Made by a program: the position numbers and the translations under genes. This document shows positions 24,102 to 60,799 of a stretch of DNA of 64,000 nt, one piece after another. The DNA lies in NCBI GenBank assembly GCA_963739295.1, contig CAVTZS010000015.1, positions 13,574 to 77,573 of the forward strand, given 5' to 3'. How positions within the stretch are numbered: the first letter of the stretch is position 1; each line of letters begins with the position of its first letter. The notes under the pieces were generated by a model. It saw nothing but the letters and a program-made list of their open reading frames with translations. It ran no database searches and was not told the origin of the DNA. The stretch comes from an uncultured delta proteobacterium (GTDB taxonomy: Bacteria; Desulfobacterota; Desulfobaccia; Desulfobaccales; 0-14-0-80-60-11).

Positions 24102-24137
24102 AAAAAAAACCGGATTGCCTCAACTCAGGCAACCCGG
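24102..24137 (-). terminator. riboswitch expression-platform terminator
   Basis: Minus strand CCGGGUUGCCU-gaguug-AGGCAAUCCGG (11 bp) followed by U8. The 5' arm overlaps the 3' strand of the aptamer. Confidence 0.7.
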
Positions 24138-24205
24138 CTATCTCCATCATTTAGAGACCCGTGGCTTTCCGTCCCCACCTTGCGATGGGTTTGGCCTTTT
24201 CTGAC
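24128..24205 (-). promoter_or_regulatory. c-di-GMP-I (GEMM-I) riboswitch aptamer
   Basis: Minus strand reads AAAGGCCAAACCCAUCGCAAGGUGGGGACGGAAAGCCACGGGUCUCUAAAUGAUGGAGAUAGCCGGGUUGCC. It tracks the recalled Vc2 pattern GGCAAACC-(GNRA hairpin)-GGGACGCAAAGCC-(hairpin)-AGCGGGGUUACC. Confidence 0.65.
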
Positions 24206-51453: not shown

Positions 51454-52564
51454 ATGTTACCTGAAATAGCCGAAATCCGGGCCAAATTGAAAGAATTTAA
51501 AGATAAGCTCACGCTCCTCCGAGGGCATCTTTGATCTGGAGGACAAGCAGGCCAGATTAGCAGAGTTAGAAAAGCAACTGGCCACGCCGGGACTGTGGGA
51601 GGATGCCACCCAGGCCGCCGACCTCTTAAGAGAGCGCAGCGCCCTGACCCAGGTGGTGGAAGATTGCCAGCAGCACTTTAAGCAGGTGGAGGACCTGGAA
51701 GTCCTGCTGGACCTAGCCCTGGAAGAGGACGATCAAGGGGCCCTGAAGGATGTGGCCCAGGACCTGGCCGTCCTGGAGGAAACCTATCAGGGTTGGGAGC
51801 TCAAGCTCCTTTTTACCGAAGAAGACCAGAAGAACGCCATCATTACCATCCATGCCGGCGCCGGCGGCACTGAGGCCCAGGATTGGGCCGAAATCTTGCT
51901 GCGCATGTATCTGCGCTATGCGGAACGCAAGGCCTTCAAGACCGAGACCCTGGACCTGTTGGTCGGGGACGAAGCCGGGATCAAGAGCGTCACCTTTACG
52001 GCCTCGGGAGACCACGCCTACGGCTATTTGAAGAGTGAAAGCGGCATCCACCGCCTGGTGCGCATCTCTCCTTTCGATGCCAGTGGCCGCCGCCATACCT
52101 CCTTTGCCGCGGTTCAGGTGCTGCCGGAGGTGGATGAAAAAATTGAGATCGACCTCAACGAGAAGGACTTGCGGATCGATACCTTCCGGGCCAGCGGCCC
52201 CGGCGGGCAACACGTTAATAAGACCAGCTCCGCGGTGCGCATCACCCACCTGCCCAGCGGCATTGTCGTCACCTCCCAAACCGAAAGATCGCAGCACCGC
52301 AATAAAGAGCTGGCCATGAAGGTCTTGCGGGCCCGCCTCTACAGTCTGGAGCAGCGCAAGCGGGAAGAAAAGAAACAGGAGCTGCAAGAGTCTCAGAAAG
52401 AAATCGCCTGGGGCAGCCAGATCCGTTCCTATACCCTTCAGCCCTACCGCCTGGTGAAGGACCACCGCACCAAGCACGAGGAAGGCAACGTGGATGCGGT
52501 CCTGGACGGCGACCTGGACCCCTTCGTGGAAGCCTATTTGATGCAGCCCGGGGAGGCTAAGTAG
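51454..52564 (+). CDS. prfB: peptide chain release factor 2, with programmed +1 frameshift (51454..51531 joined to 51533..52564)
   Basis: AAGGAG SD. MLPEIAEIRAKLKEFKDKLTLLRGHL, then in-frame TGA at 51532. The +1 frame continues DLEDKQARLAELEKQL... with SPF and GGQ motifs (SPFDASGRRHTSF, GPGGQHVNKTSSAVRITH). Confidence 0.9.
51522..51535 (+). promoter_or_regulatory. prfB autoregulatory +1 frameshift site
   Basis: GAGGG (SD-like), CAT, then CTT TGA T. Same layout as the classical AGGGGG-UAU-CUU-UGA-C site. Confidence 0.85.
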
Positions 52565-52645: not shown

Positions 52646-54376
52646 ATGAAAGTTTCCAGGTCGGCGCTTTTGGGGTTGGGGGCTCTGGTCGTGCTGGTGG
52701 CCGCCCTCTGGTACACCAGTCGTGCGGTTACCCCCAAGGAAGCCACCCGGGAGGACGTGCTGACCGAAGCCAGAGATGGCGGCTACCGGATCATCGACAC
52801 GGAAGAACTTTGGGAATATTGCCGCCAAGGCGCCCAAGACCTGCTGCTGGTGGACGTCCGGCCCGAGTGGGACTACCAGAAAGGTCATATCCAAGGGGCG
52901 GTTAACTTTCCTCTGGAACCCACCGCCTGGTCCAGATGGTGGAAAAAAGAGGCCCTGGAAAATTTTCTGGGACCTGATCGAAACCGGATAATCGTCTTTT
53001 ACTGAGCCGGGCTGGCCTGAGTCCGGAGCGACTCGGCGGCCCGGGTGGCCGTTAGAATCGGTTATAAGAACGTCTGCCGTGACCCCAGGGGCTTCCCGGA
53101 GTGGCAGTCCCGGGGTTTGCCGGTGGAACGCCCCTCGCTTGAACTCGCCGCCATCTCCCTGGACCCCAAGATTCCCGGGCCCTTATATGGCTGGGCCATG
53201 ATTTGGACGCTGCTGATGATCTTTGTCGGGGGCGTGGCTCTCAATCTGACCCCGTGCGTCTATCCCCTCCTGCCCATCACCGTCTCCTGTTTCGGGGGTC
53301 GCAGCGGCCAGACCCGGGGCCGGCTGGTGATCCACGGGCTGCTCTATGTAGGGGGCCTGTGTCTCACCAACTCCCTCCTGGGGGTGGCGGCGGCCCTGAC
53401 CGGGGGCCTTATGGGGGCCATGTTGCAAAGCCCCTGGGTGCTGGTGGCCGTGGCCGCGATCCTGGTCTTTTTTGCCACCAGCATGTTTGGCTTCTGGGAA
53501 CTGCGTCTGCCCGGGGGCCTGACCCGGGCCGCGGCCAAATCTTGCGCCGGTTACTTCGGCAGCCTGTTCATGGGATTGACCCTGGGGGTGGTGGCCGCGC
53601 CCTGCGTCGGTCCCTTTGTGCTGGGCCTGCTTACCTGGGTGGCCAGCCTGGGCTCCCCGCTCCTGGGTTTTATGGTGTTCTTCACTCTGAGCCTGGGCCT
53701 GGGTCTGCCTCTCTTCTTCCTGGCGGTCTTTTCCGGGAGCTTGGAAAAGCTTCCCCGTTCGGGGGAATGGCTTATCTGGGTGCGCCAGCTCATGGGCTGG
53801 GTCCTCCTCGGCATGGCCGCCTATTTTATCAGGCCGGTTCTTTTCGATCCTTGGGGAGTAATCCTCCTGGCGGCCATCGCCCTGGGAGCGGGGGTGCACC
53901 TGGGCTGGCTCGACCATACCATGGCCCATTTCCGGGCTTTTCCGTGGCTGAAGGCTGGCGCGGCGCTGGCGGGCCTCCTCCTGGCCCTCCTCTTCCTGGC
54001 AACCTGGGCGCTGCGCAGCCCCGGAATGGTCTGGCAGCCTTATTCCGAGGAGCTTCTGGCGGAAGCCAGGTTGCAGGGAAAACCGGTAATTATCGACTTT
54101 TATGCTATCTGGTGCGCCCCGTGCCAGGAAATGGAAAAGACTACCTTTCGTAATCCAGATATTGTTAAAATCGCGGCCCGGAATTTTATTACCATCAGGG
54201 TAGATCTCACCCGGTCCGGGAACCCCCTCAACCAGCGGTTGCTGAGGCAGTATGGGATCAAAGGGGTGCCCACGGTGATATTTTTGGATAGCCAGGGCCA
54301 GGAGCGCCCTGACCTGCGCCAGGTGGGTTACCTGCCGGCCGAGCAATTCCGTAACCGGATGGCCCAGATAAAATGA
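52646..54376 (+). CDS. rhodanese - DsbD/CcdA-type transmembrane core - thioredoxin fusion; two in-frame TGA codons (53003, 53018) read as putative selenocysteine
   Basis: One frame throughout (53045-52646 = 399). It reads ...RNRIIVFY-TGA-AGLA-TGA-VRSDSAARVAVRIGYKNV...FPEWQSRGLPVE. The first ORF stops at the rhodanese active-site loop and the second begins mid-domain. Downstream: LNLTPCVYP, AAPCVGP (DsbD core), FYAIWCAPCQ (Trx). Confidence 0.65.
53014..53041 (+). promoter_or_regulatory. SECIS-like hairpin after TGA 53003
   Basis: GGCC-UGAGUC-cggagc-GACUCG-(gc)-GGCC. The stem includes the second TGA. Confidence 0.4.
53035..53053 (+). promoter_or_regulatory. SECIS-like hairpin after TGA 53018
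   Basis: GGCGGCC-cgggu-GGCCGUU, starting 15 nt after the TGA. Confidence 0.45.
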
Positions 54377-54439
54377 ATGGAAGACAAAATGGGTCGCAGA
54401 CCCTTCGGCCCATATAGGAAAGGAAATTTAGGAGGTAAC

Positions 54440-54757
54440 ATGCTGAAGGTCAGGTGCTTCCTTAACGAACCCAACGGCAAACCCTGAAAGCATTTTCTCA
54501 AGATGGTGCCCAGGTTGGGCCAAAAATACCCCCTTGAGACGGAATTCATCTCCAAGCCTAAGGCCGAATACCAGACCGAGGAATACTTTGAGCTGGACCT
54601 GCCCGTGGCCCCCGCGGTGATGGTGGGCGAAGAGATCGTGGTGGAAGGCTCGGACGTGACGGAAGACACCCTGGAGGCGAAAATTCGCCTACACCTGGGC
54701 CTGCCTCCCCTGGAGCAGGCAAAAAAGGGAATTCTGAGCCGCTGGCTCGGGAAGTGA
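54440..54757 (+). CDS. small thioredoxin-fold-like protein with in-frame TGA (54485), putative selenoprotein
   Basis: Strong SD TAGGAGGT 6 nt before ATG 54440. MLKVRCFLNEPNGKP-TGA-KHFLKMVPRLGQKYP... is in frame with track ORF 54503..54757, which itself has no SD. PAVMVGEEIVVEGSDVTEDTLEAKI resembles the C-terminal half of small Trx/Grx-like proteins. Confidence 0.5.
54506..54521 (+). promoter_or_regulatory. SECIS-like hairpin after TGA 54485
   Basis: G-(u bulge)-GCCCA-ggu-UGGGC-C. The loop lies 26-28 nt after the TGA. Confidence 0.45.
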
Positions 54758-54808: not shown

Positions 54809-54864
54809 ACATTCCTTTAACCATCGCTTAAACCCGCTAGGACCCAGCGGGGTTATTTGGTGGG

Positions 54865-55707
54865 TCAGGTGGAGCCGGGTTTGCAGAAGCTTTCTTTTCC
54901 AGGTTCCACCAGGATTTGGGCCTGGGCCTCGATGGATGCTTGCGCCTTGGCATCCACCAGTTTTTCCCCGTAGAACAGAGCGCCTTCCGTATAGGCCGAG
55001 CTTTTGAATCCCGTATAGCCGGCCAAACCCGCCCGGTGGAAGCCAACCTGGAGCATGAGGGCCAGGAAATCCTTTCCTGGTATGGCCCCGCCGATTCACT
55101 GATACCAGTTTTCCGCCTTGCCGGCTATCTCAGGCGGCAGGTCTTGCACCAGAACCATGTCGGCCAGCATCAGGCGACCCCCGGCCTTCAGCACTCGCTG
55201 CGCTTCCCTTAAGGCCTTTTCTTTATCCAAAGTCAGGTTGAAGACCCCGTTGGAGATAATCACGTCAAATTCGTTATCCGGGAAGGGCAGAGATTCGGCT
55301 TCGCCCACCTGGAAGGTGACGTTTTCTAAACCCAGCAGGGCGAGGTTGGCCCTGGCCTTCTCGATCATCTCCGGCGTCACGTCCAGGCCCACCACCCGGC
55401 CCCGGGGGCCCACCAGCTTGGCGGCCACCAGGGTGTCAAAGCCATTCCCGCAGCCAATATCCAGGACGGCCTCTCCCGCATAGAGCGGGCCCAGGCTGAA
55501 GGGATTTCCCACCCCGCAGAAGGAGTCCACGATGGGTTTAGGAAAAACCCGGATAATTTCCGGAGGATATTTTTGCTGCCTGAGCCCCTCTTCCCCGATG
55601 GGGTACTGGAAGCAGCAGGCGGTGCCCGAGGCCGCCACCCGGGAATATTTTTCCCGGATGCCATCCCGGATGGTGACCCTTTCTTGATCCGTCAGGTGTT
55701 GCGTCAT
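54865..55707 (-). CDS. ArsM-like SAM-dependent methyltransferase with in-frame TGA (55098..55096), putative selenoprotein
   Basis: VLDIGCGNGFD (motif I), N-terminal CC pair, FCGVGNP, then ...AENWYQ-TGA-IGGAIPGKDFLALMLQVGF. This aligns with the ArsM W.GC(V/I)AGA...GF segment. The two track ORFs (55096..55707 and 54865..55056) are in one frame. The SNC(V/I)xNL cysteine is Gly here (ISNGVFNL). Confidence 0.7.
55062..55080 (-). promoter_or_regulatory. SECIS-like hairpin after TGA 55098..55096
   Basis: Minus strand CCAGGAAA-gga-UUUCCUGG, starting 16 nt after the TGA. Confidence 0.45.
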
Positions 55708-55746
55708 GGCGCCTCTCTTAAGGATGCTTACTAACTCAAGTTTATA

Positions 55747-56319
55747 TTATTTCTTTGCCTCTTTCAGCTTTTTGCCCGCGCTCCAGGCCTTCCCGGCGTG
55801 CTCTCCCACGGTCCAGTAGTTATTGTCCGGCATGGTCAGGAGCAAGGGATTCATTTTGCGGATGTCAAGCTTGCCGTCCGTGAGGTAGCGTTCCTCGGTG
55901 TAGCTGGAGACGATTTCGCCCACGAACAGGTGATTGCCGGGGAACTCCACGATGTCCACCAGCTGACATTCCAGGCACAGGGGGCACTCCTTGATCATCG
56001 GCGCGGTTTTAAGTTCTCCGTAAAAGACCTGAAAGAGGCTGGATTTATCGGCTTTCCGGCCCGAGACCAGCCCGCAATAGTCAGTCTGGGCTACCAGGTC
56101 GGCGCTGGGAAAGTTCACGCTGAAGGTGCGGTTCTCCCGGATGCCGATGGGGGTGAAATGGCCCTGGTTGAGAGACACGGCCAGAAGGGGAGGGTTGAGG
56201 TTGACCCGGGTCAGCCAGGCCACGGCCAGGAAATTGGGCCGCCCGGCCACGTTGGCCCCCACCAGGGTCACGGGCATGGGATAGACAAAGACGTTGGTGC
56301 CAAGATTAATCTTGTTCAT
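55747..56319 (-). CDS. flavin reductase-like (FMN-binding split-barrel) protein
   Basis: MNKINLGTNVFVYPMPVTLVGANVAGRPNFLAVAW. ATGA overlap with the upstream paralogue. Confidence 0.75.
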   Translation of the reverse strand: MNKINLGTNVFVYPMPVTLVGANVAGRPNFLAVAWLTRVNLNPPLLAVSLNQGHFTPIGIRENRTFSVNFPSADLVAQTDYCGLVSGRKADKSSLFQVFYGELKTAPMIKECPLCLECQLVDIVEFPGNHLFVGEIVSSYTEERYLTDGKLDIRKMNPLLLTMPDNNYWTVGEHAGKAWSAGKKLKEAKK

Positions 56320-56885
56320 CAGAGATCCTTTCCTATGGAGAAGGCCAGGCCCAGGTATTTCCCGATACCGTGATAGGTGCGGATTTCCGGGCCAAAGATA
56401 ATGGGTCTCACCTTTTCGATGTCGGGGAAGCCGGTCTCTCCCAGAACGGTTGCCTCGGCCTTGACGTCCAGGATTTTCCCGATGAATTGGGTATGCAGGC
56501 CGATCTCCAGGGTATGAATCACCTGGCATTCCAAAATCAGCGGGAACTCCTTAATGAACGGCGCGTCCACCAGACTGCTGCTCACCGGCGTGAGCCGGGA
56601 GACGGCGAATTTGTTCACTTCCTCTCCCGTGACCATCCCGAAGTAATCCGCGGCCTTGACGTGCTCTTCCGAAGGTATGTTGATGGTAAAGGCCTTCCGG
56701 GCCACGATGTTGCCGTAGGAGTAAGTGGCTTTCCTAAGAGAGACGGCTACGCAGGGCGGGCTGGAGCAGCAGATGGAGGCCCAGGCCGCGGTCATCACGT
56801 TGGGTTTGCCGTCTGGCCCATAGGTCCCCACCACCCAGACCGGGGTGGGGAAGGCCAGGGTCCGGGGGCCTAAAGATTTCTTCAT
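56319..56885 (-). CDS. flavin reductase-like (FMN-binding split-barrel) protein
   Basis: The Met at 56885 is preceded by AGGAGG. MKKSLGPRTLAFPTPVWVVGTYGPDGKPNVMTAAW. Confidence 0.75.
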   Translation of the reverse strand: MKKSLGPRTLAFPTPVWVVGTYGPDGKPNVMTAAWASICCSSPPCVAVSLRKATYSYGNIVARKAFTINIPSEEHVKAADYFGMVTGEEVNKFAVSRLTPVSSSLVDAPFIKEFPLILECQVIHTLEIGLHTQFIGKILDVKAEATVLGETGFPDIEKVRPIIFGPEIRTYHGIGKYLGLAFSIGKDL

Positions 56886-57028
56886 GGCGACACCTCCTGT
56901 TAAAGAAATTAAGACTTCGGGGCAAAAAAACAAGAAATTAAAGAGAGCGGCCGGCATGAATGGGTTAGCAGCCAGGGCTTAATCCTGAAAGTTATAATAA
57001 TAAGCCTTCATTTTTTTCTTGCAATATA

Positions 57029-57052: not shown

Positions 57053-57532
57053 ATGTCCCGACCCAAATGTTGCCGCCGGGTGGCTGGCCTCCCGGATTTC
57101 CTCCTTTTTAAACCCGCAGGGCTACCTGCCGCGGAGCTGGAGGAAATCGTCCTGACCATGGACGAATTCGAGGCCCTCCGCCTGGCTGATCTTTTGGGGC
57201 TTTACCAGGAACAGGCCGCCGCCGGTATGCATATCTCCCGGCAGACCTTCGGGCGCATCCTGGAGGGTGCCCACCACAAGGTGGCCCGGGCCCTGGTGGA
57301 GGGAAAAATCCTACGCATTGACGGAGGTAAAGTGGAGATGCCCACAATCAGAAAATTTCAATGCTTCGACTGCCAGCATATCTGGACCGTCCCTTACGGA
57401 ACGGGAAGGCCGGGCGATTGTCCCGCGTGCCATAGAGGCAATATCTGCCGCGTGGAGGCAGAGCGCGGACCTGGGGGTCCGGGTGCAGGTGGTCCTAGCC
57501 GCCGGTGCCGGCGCGGCCAGATGCAGAAATAA
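57053..57532 (+). CDS. DUF134 (UPF0251) putative DNA-binding protein with C-terminal Cys-rich extension
   Basis: MSRPKCCRRV...FKPAG, DEFEALRLADLLGLYQEQAAAGMHISRQTFGRIL, then CFDCQ...CPAC. Confidence 0.75.
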   Translation: MSRPKCCRRVAGLPDFLLFKPAGLPAAELEEIVLTMDEFEALRLADLLGLYQEQAAAGMHISRQTFGRILEGAHHKVARALVEGKILRIDGGKVEMPTIRKFQCFDCQHIWTVPYGTGRPGDCPACHRGNICRVEAERGPGGPGAGGPSRRCRRGQMQK

Positions 57533-57572
57533 CTTTTCGAAAATTTCAATTTTTCTTCAAGAGGAGAGGTCT

Positions 57573-57959
57573 ATGAAGATTGCGGTAGCTTCGGATGATG
57601 GTATCGTTCTCGCCCCGCATTTCGGCCGCAGCCGATACTTCCTGGTGTTTGACGTCCTGGAAGGCCATATCTCCGGCCCGGAGACCCGCGCCAACGGATT
57701 CACTGCGTTTGCCCACGGGGAATGCGGCTCCCAGTCACACGGCCACCACGCCCATAGTCATGACGCCCTGGTGTCGGCCCTGCATGATTGCCAGGTGGTT
57801 ATGGCCGGGGGCATGGGTAGACGGGCGGCCCTTGATCTGCAAGACCACGGCATTCAGCCACTGGTGGTGCCTTTCGCCGGCCCTGCAGTGGAGGCCGTCA
57901 AGGCGTACCTGTCCGGGTCCATCAAATCCCTGGATACCTGGTGCTGCGGCCATCAGTAA
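57573..57959 (+). CDS. NifB/NifX-type dinitrogenase Fe-Mo cofactor-binding domain protein
   Basis: GAGGAGAGG SD. MKIAVASDDGIVLAPHFGRSRYFLVFDV, VVMAGGMGRRAALDLQDHGI. Confidence 0.75.
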   Translation: MKIAVASDDGIVLAPHFGRSRYFLVFDVLEGHISGPETRANGFTAFAHGECGSQSHGHHAHSHDALVSALHDCQVVMAGGMGRRAALDLQDHGIQPLVVPFAGPAVEAVKAYLSGSIKSLDTWCCGHQ

Positions 57960-58647: not shown

Positions 58648-59301
58648 TTAGAGAATCGTCTCTTCCCCTTTTTGGGCGTTGATGGCCACGAAACCCCCTT
58701 CCCCAAAACCAGGTTTAACCGGCTCCAGGGCCGTGATCTCCTTAAGGGGCTTAAAGATGGTCTGGCAAACTTGGAAGTTCTTAAAAGCCAGCCCTTCGAG
58801 CCATCCTATCACCTGCTGCGCCGGGTAAAAGCGGGCCTGGGCATAAAATCTGCTTTCCTGTTTGCTGGCTTCATATTGCCGGCCCAGGGGGCTGTCTCCA
58901 TCAATCATGCCGATGAGTATCCGCCCTTGCGGCTTCAGGACTCGCGCTGCTTCCGCCAGGGCCCGGAAGGGGTCTGAAAGAAAACAGAGGACGGTTACCA
59001 TCAGGACCAGGTCGAAGGCCGCGGCGACAAAGGGCAATGATTCCGCCCTGGCCTGGCAGATTTTTACTCCCCGCTTCCGGGCGATTTCTGCCATCGCTTG
59101 GGCTGGCTCTACCCCAAGGTCGATTCCCAGAGGAATGGCAAACCTTCCGGTGCCCACTCCGACCTCCAGGCTTCTCCCTCCTGGAATAAGGAATCTTTTT
59201 AGCGCCAGGATTTCCGACTCATAGGCGATCTGGTTCCGATCAAACCAGGCATCATATTCCTGAGCTGATTTCTCAAATATTTGGATAACTTTATCAATCA
59301 T
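58648..59301 (-). CDS. class I SAM-dependent methyltransferase
   Basis: SLEVGVGTGRF (motif I), FDLVLMVTVLCF, LKPQGRILIG. The Met at 59301 is preferred. Confidence 0.7.
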   Translation of the reverse strand: MIDKVIQIFEKSAQEYDAWFDRNQIAYESEILALKRFLIPGGRSLEVGVGTGRFAIPLGIDLGVEPAQAMAEIARKRGVKICQARAESLPFVAAAFDLVLMVTVLCFLSDPFRALAEAARVLKPQGRILIGMIDGDSPLGRQYEASKQESRFYAQARFYPAQQVIGWLEGLAFKNFQVCQTIFKPLKEITALEPVKPGFGEGGFVAINAQKGEETIL

Positions 59302-59440
59302 AGGGAAAAGAAACCAAGGATGCCGGAGGAGGCAGATGGCTGGCAAAATGTTTCGATGACAAATGCCGGTAATAAAAGGAGCCTGGCCAACTTAAGATTC
59401 GCCAGGCTCTTAAGGATTACCGCAGGGGACCTAATTTAGC

Positions 59441-60799
59441 TTATTCCTCTTCCTCGAATTCGATCCCGTCCCGTTCGAACTGGGCGTCACGCTCGGTGTG
59501 GGCCGCCTCGATTTCCTCCTCGCTCCAGGGCTCATAGTCCAGCACTTTGGACACCAGTTCCCAAAGGTATAGGGTCTCTTCGTAGTTGCCCATGTCATGG
59601 ACCTTGGGCAGCCCCTTCATGATCTGGTCTCGACAGTTGTGGCAGGGGGCCACGACAATCTCCGCGCCGGTGTCCTTGATCTGGTCTGCCTTCACCTTGC
59701 CGTAGGCCAGGCGCTCCTGGTCGTAGGGCATGGCCCAGGCGCCGCCCCCGGCGCCGCAACAGAAGTTGTTCAGGGGGTCGTCGCACATCTCGCGGTACAG
59801 GCTCTCGTCAATGCACTGTTTTGAAATCCAGCGGCACATCTCTCCGTTGTTAGGTTCATCCTTATAAAGCATATAGGACTTGCGCACGTAGTTGCAAGGG
59901 TCGTGCACCGTGAAGGTGTGGTGGATTTTAGTCTTGTCCAGCTTGATTCGGCCGGATTTGATGTATTCTATTAGCAGATCCATGATGCTCACTACCTTGA
60001 ATTCGTCGAAAACTTCCGGAAACCAATTGTTGAACCCGACCCGGGTTGCAAAGTAGGCGTGCCCTCATTCGGGGTACAAGATGGTTTTCGCCTTTACTCG
60101 TCGGGCGTTCTCGATGATCCGACTCACCTGTTCCTTCCAGGACGGGTCGTCACCGGAGAACAGCCCCCAGTTAACCCCTTCCCAGTTAGTCGAGGACACG
60201 GTCCAGTCTTCCTTGGCGGCATAGAAGATGCGCCACCAGAACTTCATGTCGTCGGGCTCGCCGAAGGGCTCCTTGGAGTTAATGGTGACGATGATGTTGG
60301 CCCCTTCCTTGTCCACCGGCACATAGAAGCCGGGGCAGGGCTGCTCCTCGTCTTCCTCCATCTCCTTGCCCAACTCTGCCAGGAGGAACAGGAAATCATC
60401 CCTGGGAATGCCGAGGTTGTTGCCCCTCTGCAGATTCATCATGGTGCCCTTATGGATGGGTCCGGGGACCTTGTCCCGCTCCCGCAACGTGCGGCAGGCC
60501 CGGAAGGTCTTCATTAATTTAATCCCCATGGGGCACTGATACTCGCAGCGGCCGCACAGGGTGCAGACCCAGGGCCACTTGGAGTCAATGACCTCCTGCT
60601 CCATACCGAAGACTATGGCCCGGATGGCCTTGCGGGAATCCCAGCCGGTCTCCGAGCCCGGCATGGTGACCAGGCCGGTGGCGGGGCAGCCTCCGGCGCA
60701 GGTGCCACAGGTATAACAGCGATCCGCCAACTCGGGGGCAATCCCGATTTTGCGGTGCTTCCTGTCTACCCTGACCTCTTGTATGACATCCTCTGCCAT
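59441..60799 (-). CDS. HdrD/GlpC-like Fe-S oxidoreductase (2x[4Fe-4S] plus CCG domain) with in-frame TGA (60067..60065), putative selenoprotein
   Basis: CYTCGTCAGGCP and CTLCGRCEYQCP, ...KTILYPE-TGA-GHAYFATRV..., then HDPCNYVRK and FCCGAGGG. The two track ORFs (60065..60799 and 59441..59992) are in one frame (60064-59992 = 72). Confidence 0.7.
60030..60051 (-). promoter_or_regulatory. SECIS-like hairpin after TGA 60067..60065
   Basis: Minus strand UUG-(c bulge)-AACCCG-ggu-CGGGUU-CAA. The loop lies 24-26 nt after the TGA. Confidence 0.5.

What the first reader, a model, noticed from the sequence alone, without database searches (positions are those of the whole stretch)
54865..56885. ArsM-like methyltransferase with Sec at the C-terminal metalloid-binding Cys position, lacking the SNC cysteine, co-oriented with two flavin reductases
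The protein has the ArsM layout: an N-terminal CC pair, FCGVGNP, the VLDIGCGNGFD SAM motif and ISN-x-VFNL. At the W.GC(V/I)AGA position it reads WYQ-TGA-IGGA and then continues in frame for 77 more codons.

The cysteine normally found in SNC(V/I)xNL is Gly here. The canonical As(III)-binding Cys pair would therefore be replaced by a single Sec, suggesting altered chemistry or a different substrate such as Se, Te or another soft metalloid. That substrate idea is inference.

Two tandem flavin-reductase paralogues lie immediately upstream on the same strand, with ATGA coupling between them and a 39-nt gap to the methyltransferase. They could supply reducing power.
Basis: partly seen in the sequence, partly recalled or inferred. 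Interest (0 to 1): 0.7.

Follow-up and report, generated by a model that had tools for sequence, protein, structure and literature searches.

The report
ArsM-like methyltransferase with two selenocysteines

Summary
On the minus strand an ArsM-like class I methyltransferase (ATG 55707) has an in-frame TGA at codon 204. That codon aligns with the C-terminal As(III)-binding Cys of solved ArsM/AS3MT structures. The SNC cysteine is Gly, and two flavoredoxin-type genes lie directly upstream.

The supposed stop at 54865-54867 is very probably a second Sec, followed by Pro-Thr-Lys-TAA. The 284-residue read-through product matches NCBIfam NF047649, "methyltransferase/UXPK-star double selenoprotein", end to end: 503 bits against a cut-off of 460. 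A 2026 review attributes this family to Haft & Tolstoy 2025.

Both TGAs are followed by conserved hairpins with compensatory changes. In 77 related metagenome loci the first TGA is conserved and the downstream frame is under purifying selection.

Among 150 representative homologues, loss of the SNC Cys tracks with Sec. SNG forms: 39 Sec-like, 15 Cys. SNC forms: 2 Sec-like, 58 Cys.

The protein fails the tests for a canonical arsenite methyltransferase. It has 2 of 4 canonical Cys columns, scores below the NF008823 cut-off, and has no ars neighbours.

Substrate and mechanism remain inferred. This is a new member of a known kind, of moderate to low interest.

The parts
54853..55707 (-). Methyltransferase/UXPK-star double selenoprotein gene: 284 codons plus a TAA stop at 54853-54855
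   Evidence: Translation. NCBIfam NF047649: 503 bits against a cut-off of 460, with profile positions 1-283 of 283 covered by residues 1-284. Pfam class I methyltransferase domains.
55096..55098 (-). TGA = Sec204, in the column of the C-terminal As(III)-binding Cys of ArsM/AS3MT
   Evidence: HMMER alignments to 5evj, 8xt7 and 5eg5. TGA at this column in 77 of 77 loci that reach it. Cys in P0004/P0005, which read QCIGGA.
55062..55080 (-). SECIS-like hairpin 1, CCAGGAAAGGAUUUCCUGG, starting 18 nt after the U of UGA1
   Evidence: RNAalifold consensus: an 8-bp stem with 2 pairs kept through changes on both sides. Present in all 20 loci folded.
54865..54867 (-).
   Evidence: 17 of 17 subfamily loci have TGA here. 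The next TAA/TAG lies 9, 12 or 15 nt later. The NF047649 profile extends over the tail.
54853..54864 (-). Tail codons Pro-Thr-Lys plus TAA, this gene's version of the 'UXPK-star' ending
   Evidence: Related tails are UAPK, UPPK, UVRK, UPRK, UKRK, URRK and UKPK.
54833..54851 (-). Hairpin CCCGCUGGgucCUAGCGGG, 16 nt after UGA2 and beyond the stop codon. Candidate SECIS 2; possibly also a terminator for the convergent tsoC gene.
   Evidence: A 5-9 bp GC-rich hairpin starts 14-20 nt after UGA2 in the 17 subfamily loci with enough downstream DNA, with several different stems. The same hairpin scores as a + strand terminator-like site.
55246..55248 (-). Gly154 in ISNGVFNL, the column of the ArsM 'SNC' cysteine (CmArsM C174)
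   Evidence: Invariant Gly in the subfamily alignment.
55612..55614 (-). Cys32, the second Cys of ACCF. It aligns with the N-terminal CC of SNC-type homologues.
   Evidence: At least 90% conserved in alignment A1. Alignment A6.
55516..55518 (-). Cys64 of FCGVGNP, two residues before the canonical 'GCG' Cys column, which is Val66 here
   Evidence: At least 90% conserved in the subfamily.
54883..54885 (-). Cys275, six residues before Sec281 in the tail (FCKPGSTU)
   Evidence: A Cys lies 6-7 residues before the tail Sec in most but not all subfamily loci.
55747..56319 (-). Proximal flavoredoxin gene (190 aa), Methanosarcina type
   Evidence: PF01613 at 3.6e-25. PDB 3bnk at E 7e-84. Found beside the methyltransferase only in the window and in L082, L083, L091, L095 and L098.
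56319..56885 (-). Distal flavoredoxin gene (188 aa), Desulfovibrio type. Its TGA stop overlaps the next ATG by one base.
   Evidence: PF01613 at 1.1e-35. PDB 2d5m at E 1.7e-71. Directly upstream of the methyltransferase in 17 of 18 related loci with enough upstream DNA. Junction sequence.
56997..57024 (-). Sigma-70-like promoter match upstream of the flavoredoxin-flavoredoxin-methyltransferase unit
   Evidence: TTGCAA-16-TATTAT, 9 of 12 positions. This is a consensus match only.

Best explanation
The gene encodes a member of the NCBIfam NF047649 family, 'methyltransferase/UXPK-star double selenoprotein'. It is a SAM-dependent class I methyltransferase of the ArsM/AS3MT superfamily. UGA codon 204 is decoded as Sec at the column of the C-terminal metalloid-binding Cys. 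UGA codon 281 is decoded as a second Sec in a short C-terminal tail (...C-K-P-G-S-T-U-P-T-K). Each UGA is served by a downstream stem-loop.

Shown here: family membership, both UGAs, the hairpins, purifying selection on the read-through frame, loss of two canonical ArsM cysteines, and conserved linkage to a flavoredoxin gene.

Inferred mechanism: a soft metal or metalloid binds the selenolate of Sec204. As(III) is the default guess from homology, but it is unproven. The ligands lost at the SNC and GCG columns are replaced by the mobile tail (Sec281, Cys275) and perhaps by Cys32 and Cys64. SAM then donates a methyl group. Any Se-Se or Se-S bond formed during the oxidative methyl transfer is re-reduced with electrons from the co-transcribed flavoredoxins.

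Sister subfamilies carry other Sec-bearing C-terminal modules instead of the tail: an AhpD-like domain with CxxU, or DUF2284. This fits the idea that a second chalcogen centre must be supplied from the C-terminus.
For: - Family: NF047649 scores 503 bits against a cut-off of 460, end to end. The 203-aa truncation scores only 361.
- Literature: a 2026 review lists the family with 2 Sec and motif UxxG.
- UGA1: it aligns with the Cys of ArsM structures, is TGA in 77 of 77 loci, and is Cys in P0004/P0005.
- Read-through frame: the 46 codons after UGA1 are 74-87% identical in protein. Nucleotide differences by codon position are 111/67/332, with 286 synonymous and 143 non-synonymous codon changes.
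- Hairpins: hairpin 1 has 8 bp and 2 compensated pairs. Hairpin 2 is present in all 17 subfamily loci with enough downstream DNA, with varied stems.
- UGA2: always TGA, with the true stop 9, 12 or 15 nt later.
- Cysteine columns: Gly154 is invariant and Val66 occupies the GCG column.
- Sister subfamilies with AhpD (GCDxU) or DUF2284 fusions appear among the loci.
- Linkage: the flavoredoxin neighbour is conserved in 17 of 18 loci and is identified as flavoredoxin by PDB matches.
- A DsrK/HdrD-like Fe-S CCG protein with its own in-frame TGA recurs nearby.
Against: - No experiment supports Sec insertion, the substrate or the role of the tail.
- Hairpin 2 also scores as an intrinsic terminator for the convergent tsoC gene, so UGA2 could be a plain stop.
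- The related loci probably come from related Desulfobacterota-like lineages (their prfB is 77-85% identical). Conserved gene order may therefore be partly inheritance rather than function.
- One subfamily locus (L086) has no flavoredoxin upstream.
- The tail Cys is not universal.
- The AlphaFold model of the Cys homologue P0004 has low confidence around the Sec column (pLDDT below 50), so no geometry could be checked.
- No tRNA-Sec or sel genes are in the window.
- The primary paper (Haft & Tolstoy 2025) could not be read here.
Confidence: 0.7

Rival explanations
1. Single-Sec protein: UGA204 is Sec, but the TGA at 54865-54867 is the true stop. The downstream hairpin is only a (bidirectional) transcription terminator, and the 'PTK' codons are untranslated.
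For: - The hairpin at 54833-54851 scores as a + strand terminator whose T-rich tail is the complement of the AAATAA codons.
- The gene converges on tsoC, or on prfB in other loci.
- Sister subfamilies exist as short single-Sec forms.
Against: - All 17 subfamily loci use TGA here, never TAA or TAG, although synonymous sites in the same genes are heavily changed.
- The distance to the next TAA/TAG is 9, 12 or 15 nt, always in frame.
- The last codon is Lys, Arg or Gln, and both AAA and AAG are used.
- The curated profile NF047649 covers the tail.
- The Cys-form homologue P0131 ends ...SGCSP.
Confidence: 0.12
2. It is a genuine arsenite methyltransferase (ArsM) for arsenic detoxification. Sec is simply a better As(III) ligand, and the flavoredoxins are unrelated neighbours.
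For: - The best solved-structure relatives by sequence are ArsM/AS3MT: E 4.8e-28 to 5evj, and also human AS3MT.
- ArsM structures are among the top fold matches.
- The sister NCBIfam families are named arsenite methyltransferase.
- Sec-containing arsenite methyltransferases are listed as known.
Against: - NF008823 scores 211 bits, below its cut-off of 263.
- Only 2 of the 4 canonical Cys columns are occupied. A published ArsM survey required at least 3 of 4 (PMC5552862).
- No ars genes were identified among the neighbours from about 51.6 to 60.8 kb.
- NCBI's name for this family omits 'arsenite'.
- Fold matches to RebM and other class I methyltransferases score about equally.
Confidence: 0.3
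3. Not a selenoprotein: the gene is a pseudogene or a 203-aa truncated methyltransferase, with an unrelated small ORF downstream.
For: - Public gene calls for nearly all close homologues are 203 aa.
- A separate 63-aa ATG ORF can be drawn at 54865-55056.
Against: - The TGA is conserved at one column in 77 of 77 loci, down to 45% identity.
- The residues between the TGA and the first downstream Met (IGGAIPGKDFLAL) are conserved and align with the ArsM motif after the Cys.
- Substitutions show a strong third-position bias.
- A conserved hairpin follows the TGA.
- Full-length Cys forms exist.
- The 203-aa form falls below the family cut-off.
Confidence: 0.02

Closest known systems
NCBIfam NF047649, methyltransferase/UXPK-star double selenoprotein (attributed to Haft & Tolstoy 2025 in review PMC13188914)
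   Same: End-to-end profile match above the curated cut-off. Sec in the UxxG motif. Second Sec four residues from the end. About 284 aa.
   Different: The tail here is U-P-T-K rather than the eponymous U-x-P-K. Otherwise nothing distinguishes it. The family has no tested function.
NF041537 (ArsM/AhpD-domain selenoprotein) and NF041536 (ArsM/DUF2284-domain selenoprotein)
   Same: The same SNG-type methyltransferase core with Sec at the same column: 357 and 309 bits over residues 1 to about 260. Both families are represented among the metagenome loci.
   Different: They carry a folded C-terminal domain with its own Sec (for example GCDxU in AhpD) instead of the short tail. The window protein scores below both cut-offs (510 and 575).
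Canonical ArsM/AS3MT arsenite methyltransferases (CmArsM 4fr0, CrArsM 5evj, human AS3MT 8xt7), including the Sec-containing forms credited to Fomenko et al. 2007
   Same: Class I SAM fold, the ISNxVxNL motif, and the W-x-x-(C/U)-x-G-A motif with the chalcogen ligand at the same column.
   Different: It lacks the SNC Cys (Gly154) and the GCG Cys (Val66), and has a displaced Cys64. It lacks the long C-terminal domain of the algal and human enzymes. It scores below the NF008823 cut-off, has no ars context, and adds a Sec tail.
Mobile C-terminal redox or metal-handling tails: the GCUG tail of mammalian thioredoxin reductase and the C-terminal Cys pair of MerA (analogy from general knowledge, not tested)
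   Same: A Cys/Sec pair near the extreme C-terminus follows a region with no conserved sequence, so it could plausibly swing into an active site.
   Different: Unrelated folds and chemistry. The analogy is only a working model for the tail.
Flavoredoxin (PDB 2d5m from Desulfovibrio vulgaris, 3bnk from Methanosarcina acetivorans)
   Same: Both upstream genes are full-length, high-scoring matches.
   Different: No link between flavoredoxin and a methyltransferase is known to me. The link here rests on gene order only.

Membership tests
NF047649 methyltransferase/UXPK-star double selenoprotein | Whole-protein score at or above the curated cut-off (460 bits), with full profile coverage | tested here: met
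   503 bits, residues 1-284 on profile positions 1-283 of 283, with U written as C. 496 bits without the tail.
NF047649 methyltransferase/UXPK-star double selenoprotein | Sec (TGA) in the UxxG motif of the methyltransferase core | tested here: met
   WYQ-TGA-IGGA at 55098-55096. The same column is TGA in 77 of 77 loci.
NF047649 methyltransferase/UXPK-star double selenoprotein | Second Sec followed by about three residues and a stop ('UXPK-star') | tested here: met
   TGA CCC ACC AAA TAA. The variant here is UPTK. 17 of 17 subfamily loci show U plus 2-4 residues plus a stop.
NF047649 methyltransferase/UXPK-star double selenoprotein | Actual co-translational insertion of selenium at both UGAs | not testable with these tools
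   Needs 75Se labelling or mass spectrometry.
Bacterial SECIS-dependent Sec decoding | A stem-loop a short distance 3' of the UGA with G in the apical loop (bSECIS model, from general knowledge) | tested here: met
   Hairpin 1 lies at +18 to +36 with loop GGA, 8 bp and 2 compensated pairs. Hairpin 2 starts 14-20 nt after UGA2 with G-containing loops and varied stems. No Rfam family matched at the gathering threshold.
Bacterial SECIS-dependent Sec decoding | Sec machinery (selA, selB, selC, selD) in the genome | tested here: inconclusive
   There is no tRNA-Sec in the 64-kb window. However, four genes between about 52.6 and 60.8 kb carry conserved in-frame TGAs: TsoB, TsoC, the methyltransferase and the DsrK-like protein.
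ArsM/AS3MT arsenite methyltransferase | Class I SAM-binding methyltransferase domain | tested here: met
   PF13847 at 1.2e-39, PF08241, PF13649.
ArsM/AS3MT arsenite methyltransferase | NCBIfam NF008823 score at or above 263 bits | tested here: not met
   211 bits.
ArsM/AS3MT arsenite methyltransferase | At least 3 of the 4 conserved cysteines (CmArsM C44, C72, C174, C224; the criterion used in PMC5552862) | tested here: not met
   The columns read C32, V66, G154 and U204, so 2 of 4 are occupied. Cys64 lies two residues off the C72 column.
ArsM/AS3MT arsenite methyltransferase | Arsenic-resistance gene context | tested here: not met
   The neighbours are prfB, tsoB, tsoC, two flavoredoxins, DUF134, a NifX-like gene, a second methyltransferase and a DsrK-like Fe-S protein.
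ArsM/AS3MT arsenite methyltransferase | As(III) methylation activity | not testable with these tools
   Needs an enzyme assay.
Flavoredoxin / PF01613 flavin-reductase-like | PF01613 domain above the gathering score, plus full-length similarity to solved flavoredoxins | tested here: met
   89.3 and 123.4 bits against a cut-off of 27. 3bnk at E 7e-84 and 2d5m at E 1.7e-71.

The most novel reading that the evidence does not exclude
The whole 'SNG' clade may not be arsenite methyltransferases at all. These are ArsM-like enzymes that have lost the SNC and GCG cysteines and mostly carry Sec. They could form a distinct class of Sec-dependent methyltransferases acting on another soft element or on a chalcogen species, such as Hg, Se, Te, Sb or a persulfide/perselenide. 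In this reading a single active-site selenolate works with an interchangeable C-terminal Sec module (tail, AhpD or DUF2284), and the enzyme is recycled by a dedicated flavoredoxin and/or DsrK-HdrD-like reductase. This would be a new selenium-dependent route of organometal(loid) formation in anaerobes.
Probability: 0.25. Interest if true: 0.65.

Novelty: new member of a known kind. Interest (0 to 1): 0.35.

Why it matters
Methylation of arsenic and other metalloids by anaerobes controls their toxicity and mobility in sediments and paddy soils. Surveys of arsM genes usually demand the canonical cysteines and use gene calls that stop at TGA. This abundant clade is therefore both truncated in databases and excluded from such counts: 4636 hits at E <= 1e-20 among the 8000 candidates scored, and 557 representative clusters at E <= 1e-30.

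If these enzymes methylate arsenic, anaerobic methylation potential is under-counted. If they act on something else, they mark an unknown selenium-dependent chemistry.

For this window specifically, the practical value is correct annotation. The gene is one 284-residue protein with two Sec, not a 203-aa methyltransferase. It also sits in a region with several other selenoprotein genes.

Tried and rejected
- **Genome scan.** The scan of genome contigs with the single protein used peptide patterns that were too specific. It returned only one true relative (L001). The rest were generic methyltransferases and were not used, apart from L002-L004 as Cys-form comparisons.
- **Model of the Cys homologue.** The model of P0004 had pLDDT below 50 around the Cys column and the C-terminus. 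I did not use it for active-site geometry. Foldseek did not separate ArsM from other class I methyltransferases.
- **Alignment of the second hairpin.** MAFFT plus RNAalifold misaligned arms of different loop length and recovered only 4 pairs. I replaced this with a per-locus hairpin search.
- **Rfam.** Rfam at the gathering threshold found no SECIS family.
- **TsoA search.** A regex search for the TsoA motif LULAxC found nothing in the window.
- **Primary paper.** Haft & Tolstoy 2025 is not held in the library. What that paper says about function or neighbours is unknown to me.
- **Pseudogene or split-gene reading.** I considered it and rejected it.
- **UGA reassignment.** I rejected it as unlikely. 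TGA ends the distal flavoredoxin gene and tsoB, and the long ORFs inspected contain no other in-frame TGA.
Full report
**Observation**

The feature lies on the minus strand. An ORF starts at ATG 55707 and reads MTQHLTDQ...ENWYQ. It then meets TGA at 55098-55096 (codon 204) and continues in frame as IGGAIPGKDFLALMLQVGFHRAGLAGYTGFKSSAYTEGALFYGEK...FCKPGST. A second TGA follows at 54867-54865 (codon 281), then CCC ACC AAA TAA.

Pfam finds class I SAM methyltransferase domains, with PF13847 at 1.2e-39.

HMMER alignments to solved structures put codon 204 on the Cys of the conserved C-terminal motif. This holds for CrArsM 5evj (E 4.8e-28), human AS3MT 8xt7 and CmArsM 5eg5. The same alignments put ISNG on ISNC. 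The core observation is therefore correct.

**What it is**

NCBIfam gives a specific answer. The best model is NF047649, "methyltransferase/UXPK-star double selenoprotein", at 496 bits against a curated cut-off of 460.

- The match stopped four profile positions short of the end. This prompted me to read the TGA at 54865 as Sec.
- With the four tail residues added, the 284-residue protein (U written as C) aligns over positions 1-283 of the 283-position profile at 503 bits.
- The 203-residue product that a gene caller would report scores only 361 bits, below the cut-off.
- The generic arsenite methyltransferase model NF008823 scores 211 bits against a cut-off of 263.
- The sister models ArsM_AhpD_UU and ArsM_DUF2284_UU score 357 and 309 bits, below their cut-offs.

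A 2026 review (PMC13188914) lists several relevant entries.

- It lists exactly this family: 2 Sec, motif UxxG, attributed to Haft & Tolstoy 2025.
- It lists Sec-containing arsenite methyltransferase as an established selenoprotein, citing Fomenko et al. 2007.
- It lists the TsoA/B/C "three selenoprotein operon".

I could not read the 2025 primary paper.

**Evidence that UGA204 is decoded**

- Nearly all of the 120 best database homologues are 203 aa long. They stop at this TGA. Two 268-aa homologues, P0004 and P0005, read ...WCQCIGGA... with Cys.
- I fetched 80 metagenome loci and one genome locus. All 77 metagenome loci that reach the column have TGA there, down to 45% identity. The frame continues with a conserved sequence.
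- Against 17 subfamily loci, the 46 codons after the TGA are 74-87% identical in protein. Nucleotide differences by codon position are 111, 67 and 332. Codon changes are 286 synonymous and 143 non-synonymous.
- A hairpin, CC(A/G)GGAAxGGAxUUCCUGG, lies 18-36 nt after the UGA. RNAalifold recovers 8 pairs, and two of them are kept through changes on both sides.

**Evidence that UGA281 is decoded**

- All 17 subfamily loci with sequence at that point have TGA there.
- It is preceded by (C)-x-P-G-x-x. It is followed by two to four codons ending in Lys, Arg or Gln, then TAA or TAG (TGA in one locus). The tails seen are UAPK, UPPK, UVRK, UPRK, UKRK, URRK and UKPK, and UPTK here.
- The distance from the TGA to the true stop is 9, 12 or 15 nt, always a multiple of three.
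- In the 17 loci with enough downstream DNA, a GC-rich hairpin of 5-9 bp starts 14-20 nt after the TGA, with G-containing loops. The stems differ between loci, for example CCCGCUGG/CUAGCGGG, CCCGCCCG/CGGGCGGG, CCGCUUC/GAAGCGG and CCCCGG/CCGGGG.
- A Cys-form relative, P0131, ends ...SGCSP.

There is a caveat. The same hairpin (54833-54851) scores as a terminator on the + strand for the convergent tsoC gene. It may serve both roles. I leave about 12% on the reading that this TGA is simply the stop.

**The cysteine pattern**

In the subfamily alignment Gly154 is invariant. Cys32 and Cys64 are at least 90% conserved, and Cys31 is not conserved.

I also ran a full HMMER search of 1.84 billion representative proteins clustered at 50% identity. 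I classified the best 150 hits by the residue at the SNx column and at the Sec column.

| Type at SNx column | Cys at Sec column | End at column 203 (Sec-like) | Other |
|---|---|---|---|
| SNC | 58 | 2 | 8 (6 fragments or other ends; 1 Ser, 1 Trp) |
| SNG | 15 | 39 | 25 (22 fragments or other ends; 3 with Ala, Glu or Leu) |

The remaining 3 hits have Ala, Asn or Ser at the SNx column.

- The canonical 'GCG' cysteine column is Cys in 65 of the SNC forms. It is never Cys in SNG forms, and is Val in 63 of them.
- The window's Cys64 lies two residues upstream of that column.
- The N-terminal CC pair is present in 51 SNC forms and is rare in SNG forms.

It defines a separate clade that keeps only the last of the four ArsM cysteines, mostly as Sec.

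A published ArsM survey required at least 3 of the 4 cysteines (PMC5552862). By that criterion the window protein fails, with 2 of 4 in the strict columns.

**Context**

*Upstream genes.* The two upstream PF01613 genes are flavoredoxins. The distal one matches D. vulgaris flavoredoxin 2d5m at E 1.7e-71. The proximal one matches M. acetivorans flavoredoxin 3bnk at E 7e-84. They overlap by one base (TGATG). The methyltransferase follows after 39 nt and has a GAGAGG Shine-Dalgarno-like site. A promoter-like match lies at 57024-56997.

*Conservation of the flavoredoxin link.* The distal-type flavoredoxin lies directly upstream of the methyltransferase in 17 of 18 related loci with enough upstream DNA. 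The proximal type is present in only six, counting the window.

*Downstream, convergent genes.* TsoB lies at 52646-54376, with UxxxxU from TGAs at 53003 and 53018; NF045694 scores 945 bits against a cut-off of 805. TsoC carries the motif NEPNGKPU; NF045708 scores 143 bits against a cut-off of 45. These two are present in eight related loci. In four others prfB takes their place, so the methyltransferase does not depend on them.

*Further upstream on the same strand.* There is a second class I methyltransferase. There is also a DsrK/HmcF/HdrD-like Fe-S CCG protein at 59441-60799 with its own in-frame TGA (LYPEUGHAY). This protein recurs next to the methyltransferase in nine loci, including two of a more distant single-Sec subfamily.

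*Other points.* No ars genes were identified among these neighbours. No tRNA-Sec lies in the window.

**Mechanism**

Shown:

- It is a SAM methyltransferase of the ArsM superfamily.
- It has a selenolate-coding codon at the metalloid-ligand column.
- It has a second Sec in a short tail that follows a stretch of about 30 residues with little sequence conservation.
- It is linked to FMN redox proteins.

Inferred: canonical ArsM binds As(III) with the SNC and C-terminal cysteines plus an N-terminal cysteine. It uses an N-terminal cysteine pair to reduce the methylated intermediate (general knowledge of CmArsM and AS3MT). Here two of those four residues are gone.

Three sister subfamilies each add a different Sec-bearing module at the C-terminus: the tail, an AhpD-like CxxU domain, or DUF2284. 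I therefore propose three things.

- The tail Sec281, often together with Cys275, supplies the missing ligand or resolving residue.
- Cys32 and Cys64 may assist.
- The flavoredoxins, and possibly the DsrK-like protein, return the enzyme to the reduced state.

The substrate is unknown. As(III) is the default from homology. The failed membership tests and the absence of ars neighbours leave room for another soft element.

**Verdict**

The feature is real. The family is already catalogued. This is a new member of a known, biochemically untested kind.

The added value here has four parts:

- the corrected gene model;
- the comparative support for both Sec codons;
- the quantified SNG/Sec co-variation;
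- the conserved flavoredoxin linkage.

Noticed in passing
window 52646-54376 (+): Rhodanese/DsbD fusion selenoprotein TsoB with two in-frame TGAs at 53003 and 53018 (IIVFY-U-AGLA-U-VRSD). NF045694 scores 945.5 bits against a cut-off of 805. ORF listings split it into a 119-aa rhodanese and a 443-aa DsbD-like protein.
   Followed up: partly
window about 54377-54757 (+), TGA at 54485-54487: TsoC selenoprotein with the motif NEPNGKPU (NF045708: 142.8 bits, cut-off 45). It converges on the methyltransferase. Several related loci carry two TsoC copies. No TsoA motif (LULAxC) was found in the window.
   Followed up: partly
window 59441-60799 (-), TGA at 60065-60067: A 452-aa Fe-S protein (two 4Fe-4S motifs plus a CCG domain) resembling HmcF, TmcB, DsrK and HdrD, with an in-frame TGA (LYPE-U-GHAY). 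It is probably another selenoprotein. ORF listings show only its last 183 aa. Homologues lie near the methyltransferase in nine related loci.
   Followed up: partly
window 54833-54851: The hairpin after the second TGA also scores as an intrinsic terminator on the + strand. Its T-rich tail there is the complement of the AAATAA Lys-stop codons. It may be a shared terminator for the convergent tsoC and methyltransferase genes as well as a SECIS.
   Followed up: partly
window 51653-52564 (+): prfB, encoding release factor 2 (the factor that reads UGA), lies immediately upstream of tsoB. It is found in the same neighbourhood as the methyltransferase in at least nine related loci (77-85% identity). 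Whether this adjacency means anything for UGA recoding is unknown.
   Followed up: no
window 58648-59346 (-), 57053-57532 (+) and 57567-57959 (+): A second class I methyltransferase (weak DVU_1556-family match) lies here, with a divergent DUF134 plus NifX-like (PF02579) gene pair between it and the flavoredoxin genes. The second methyltransferase is conserved near the selenoprotein in several loci (L001, L084, L088, L089, L091).
   Followed up: partly
window 24124-24204 (-): A c-di-GMP-I-GGC riboswitch match (RF03167: 75.8 bits, gathering score 59).
   Followed up: no
L093 and L105 (related loci): These are tail variants. In L093 the codon that ends the tail is itself TGA, and the frame stays open for 27 more codons. 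L105 reads ...GGS-U-RR-U-PRPVRAEVKS. Some members may carry a third Sec or a longer tail.
   Followed up: no
P0131 (representative homologue, 288 aa): An SNG-type homologue with Cys instead of Sec in the core also ends ...PQSGCSP. This looks like a Cys counterpart of the ...PGSTU-PTK tail.
   Followed up: no
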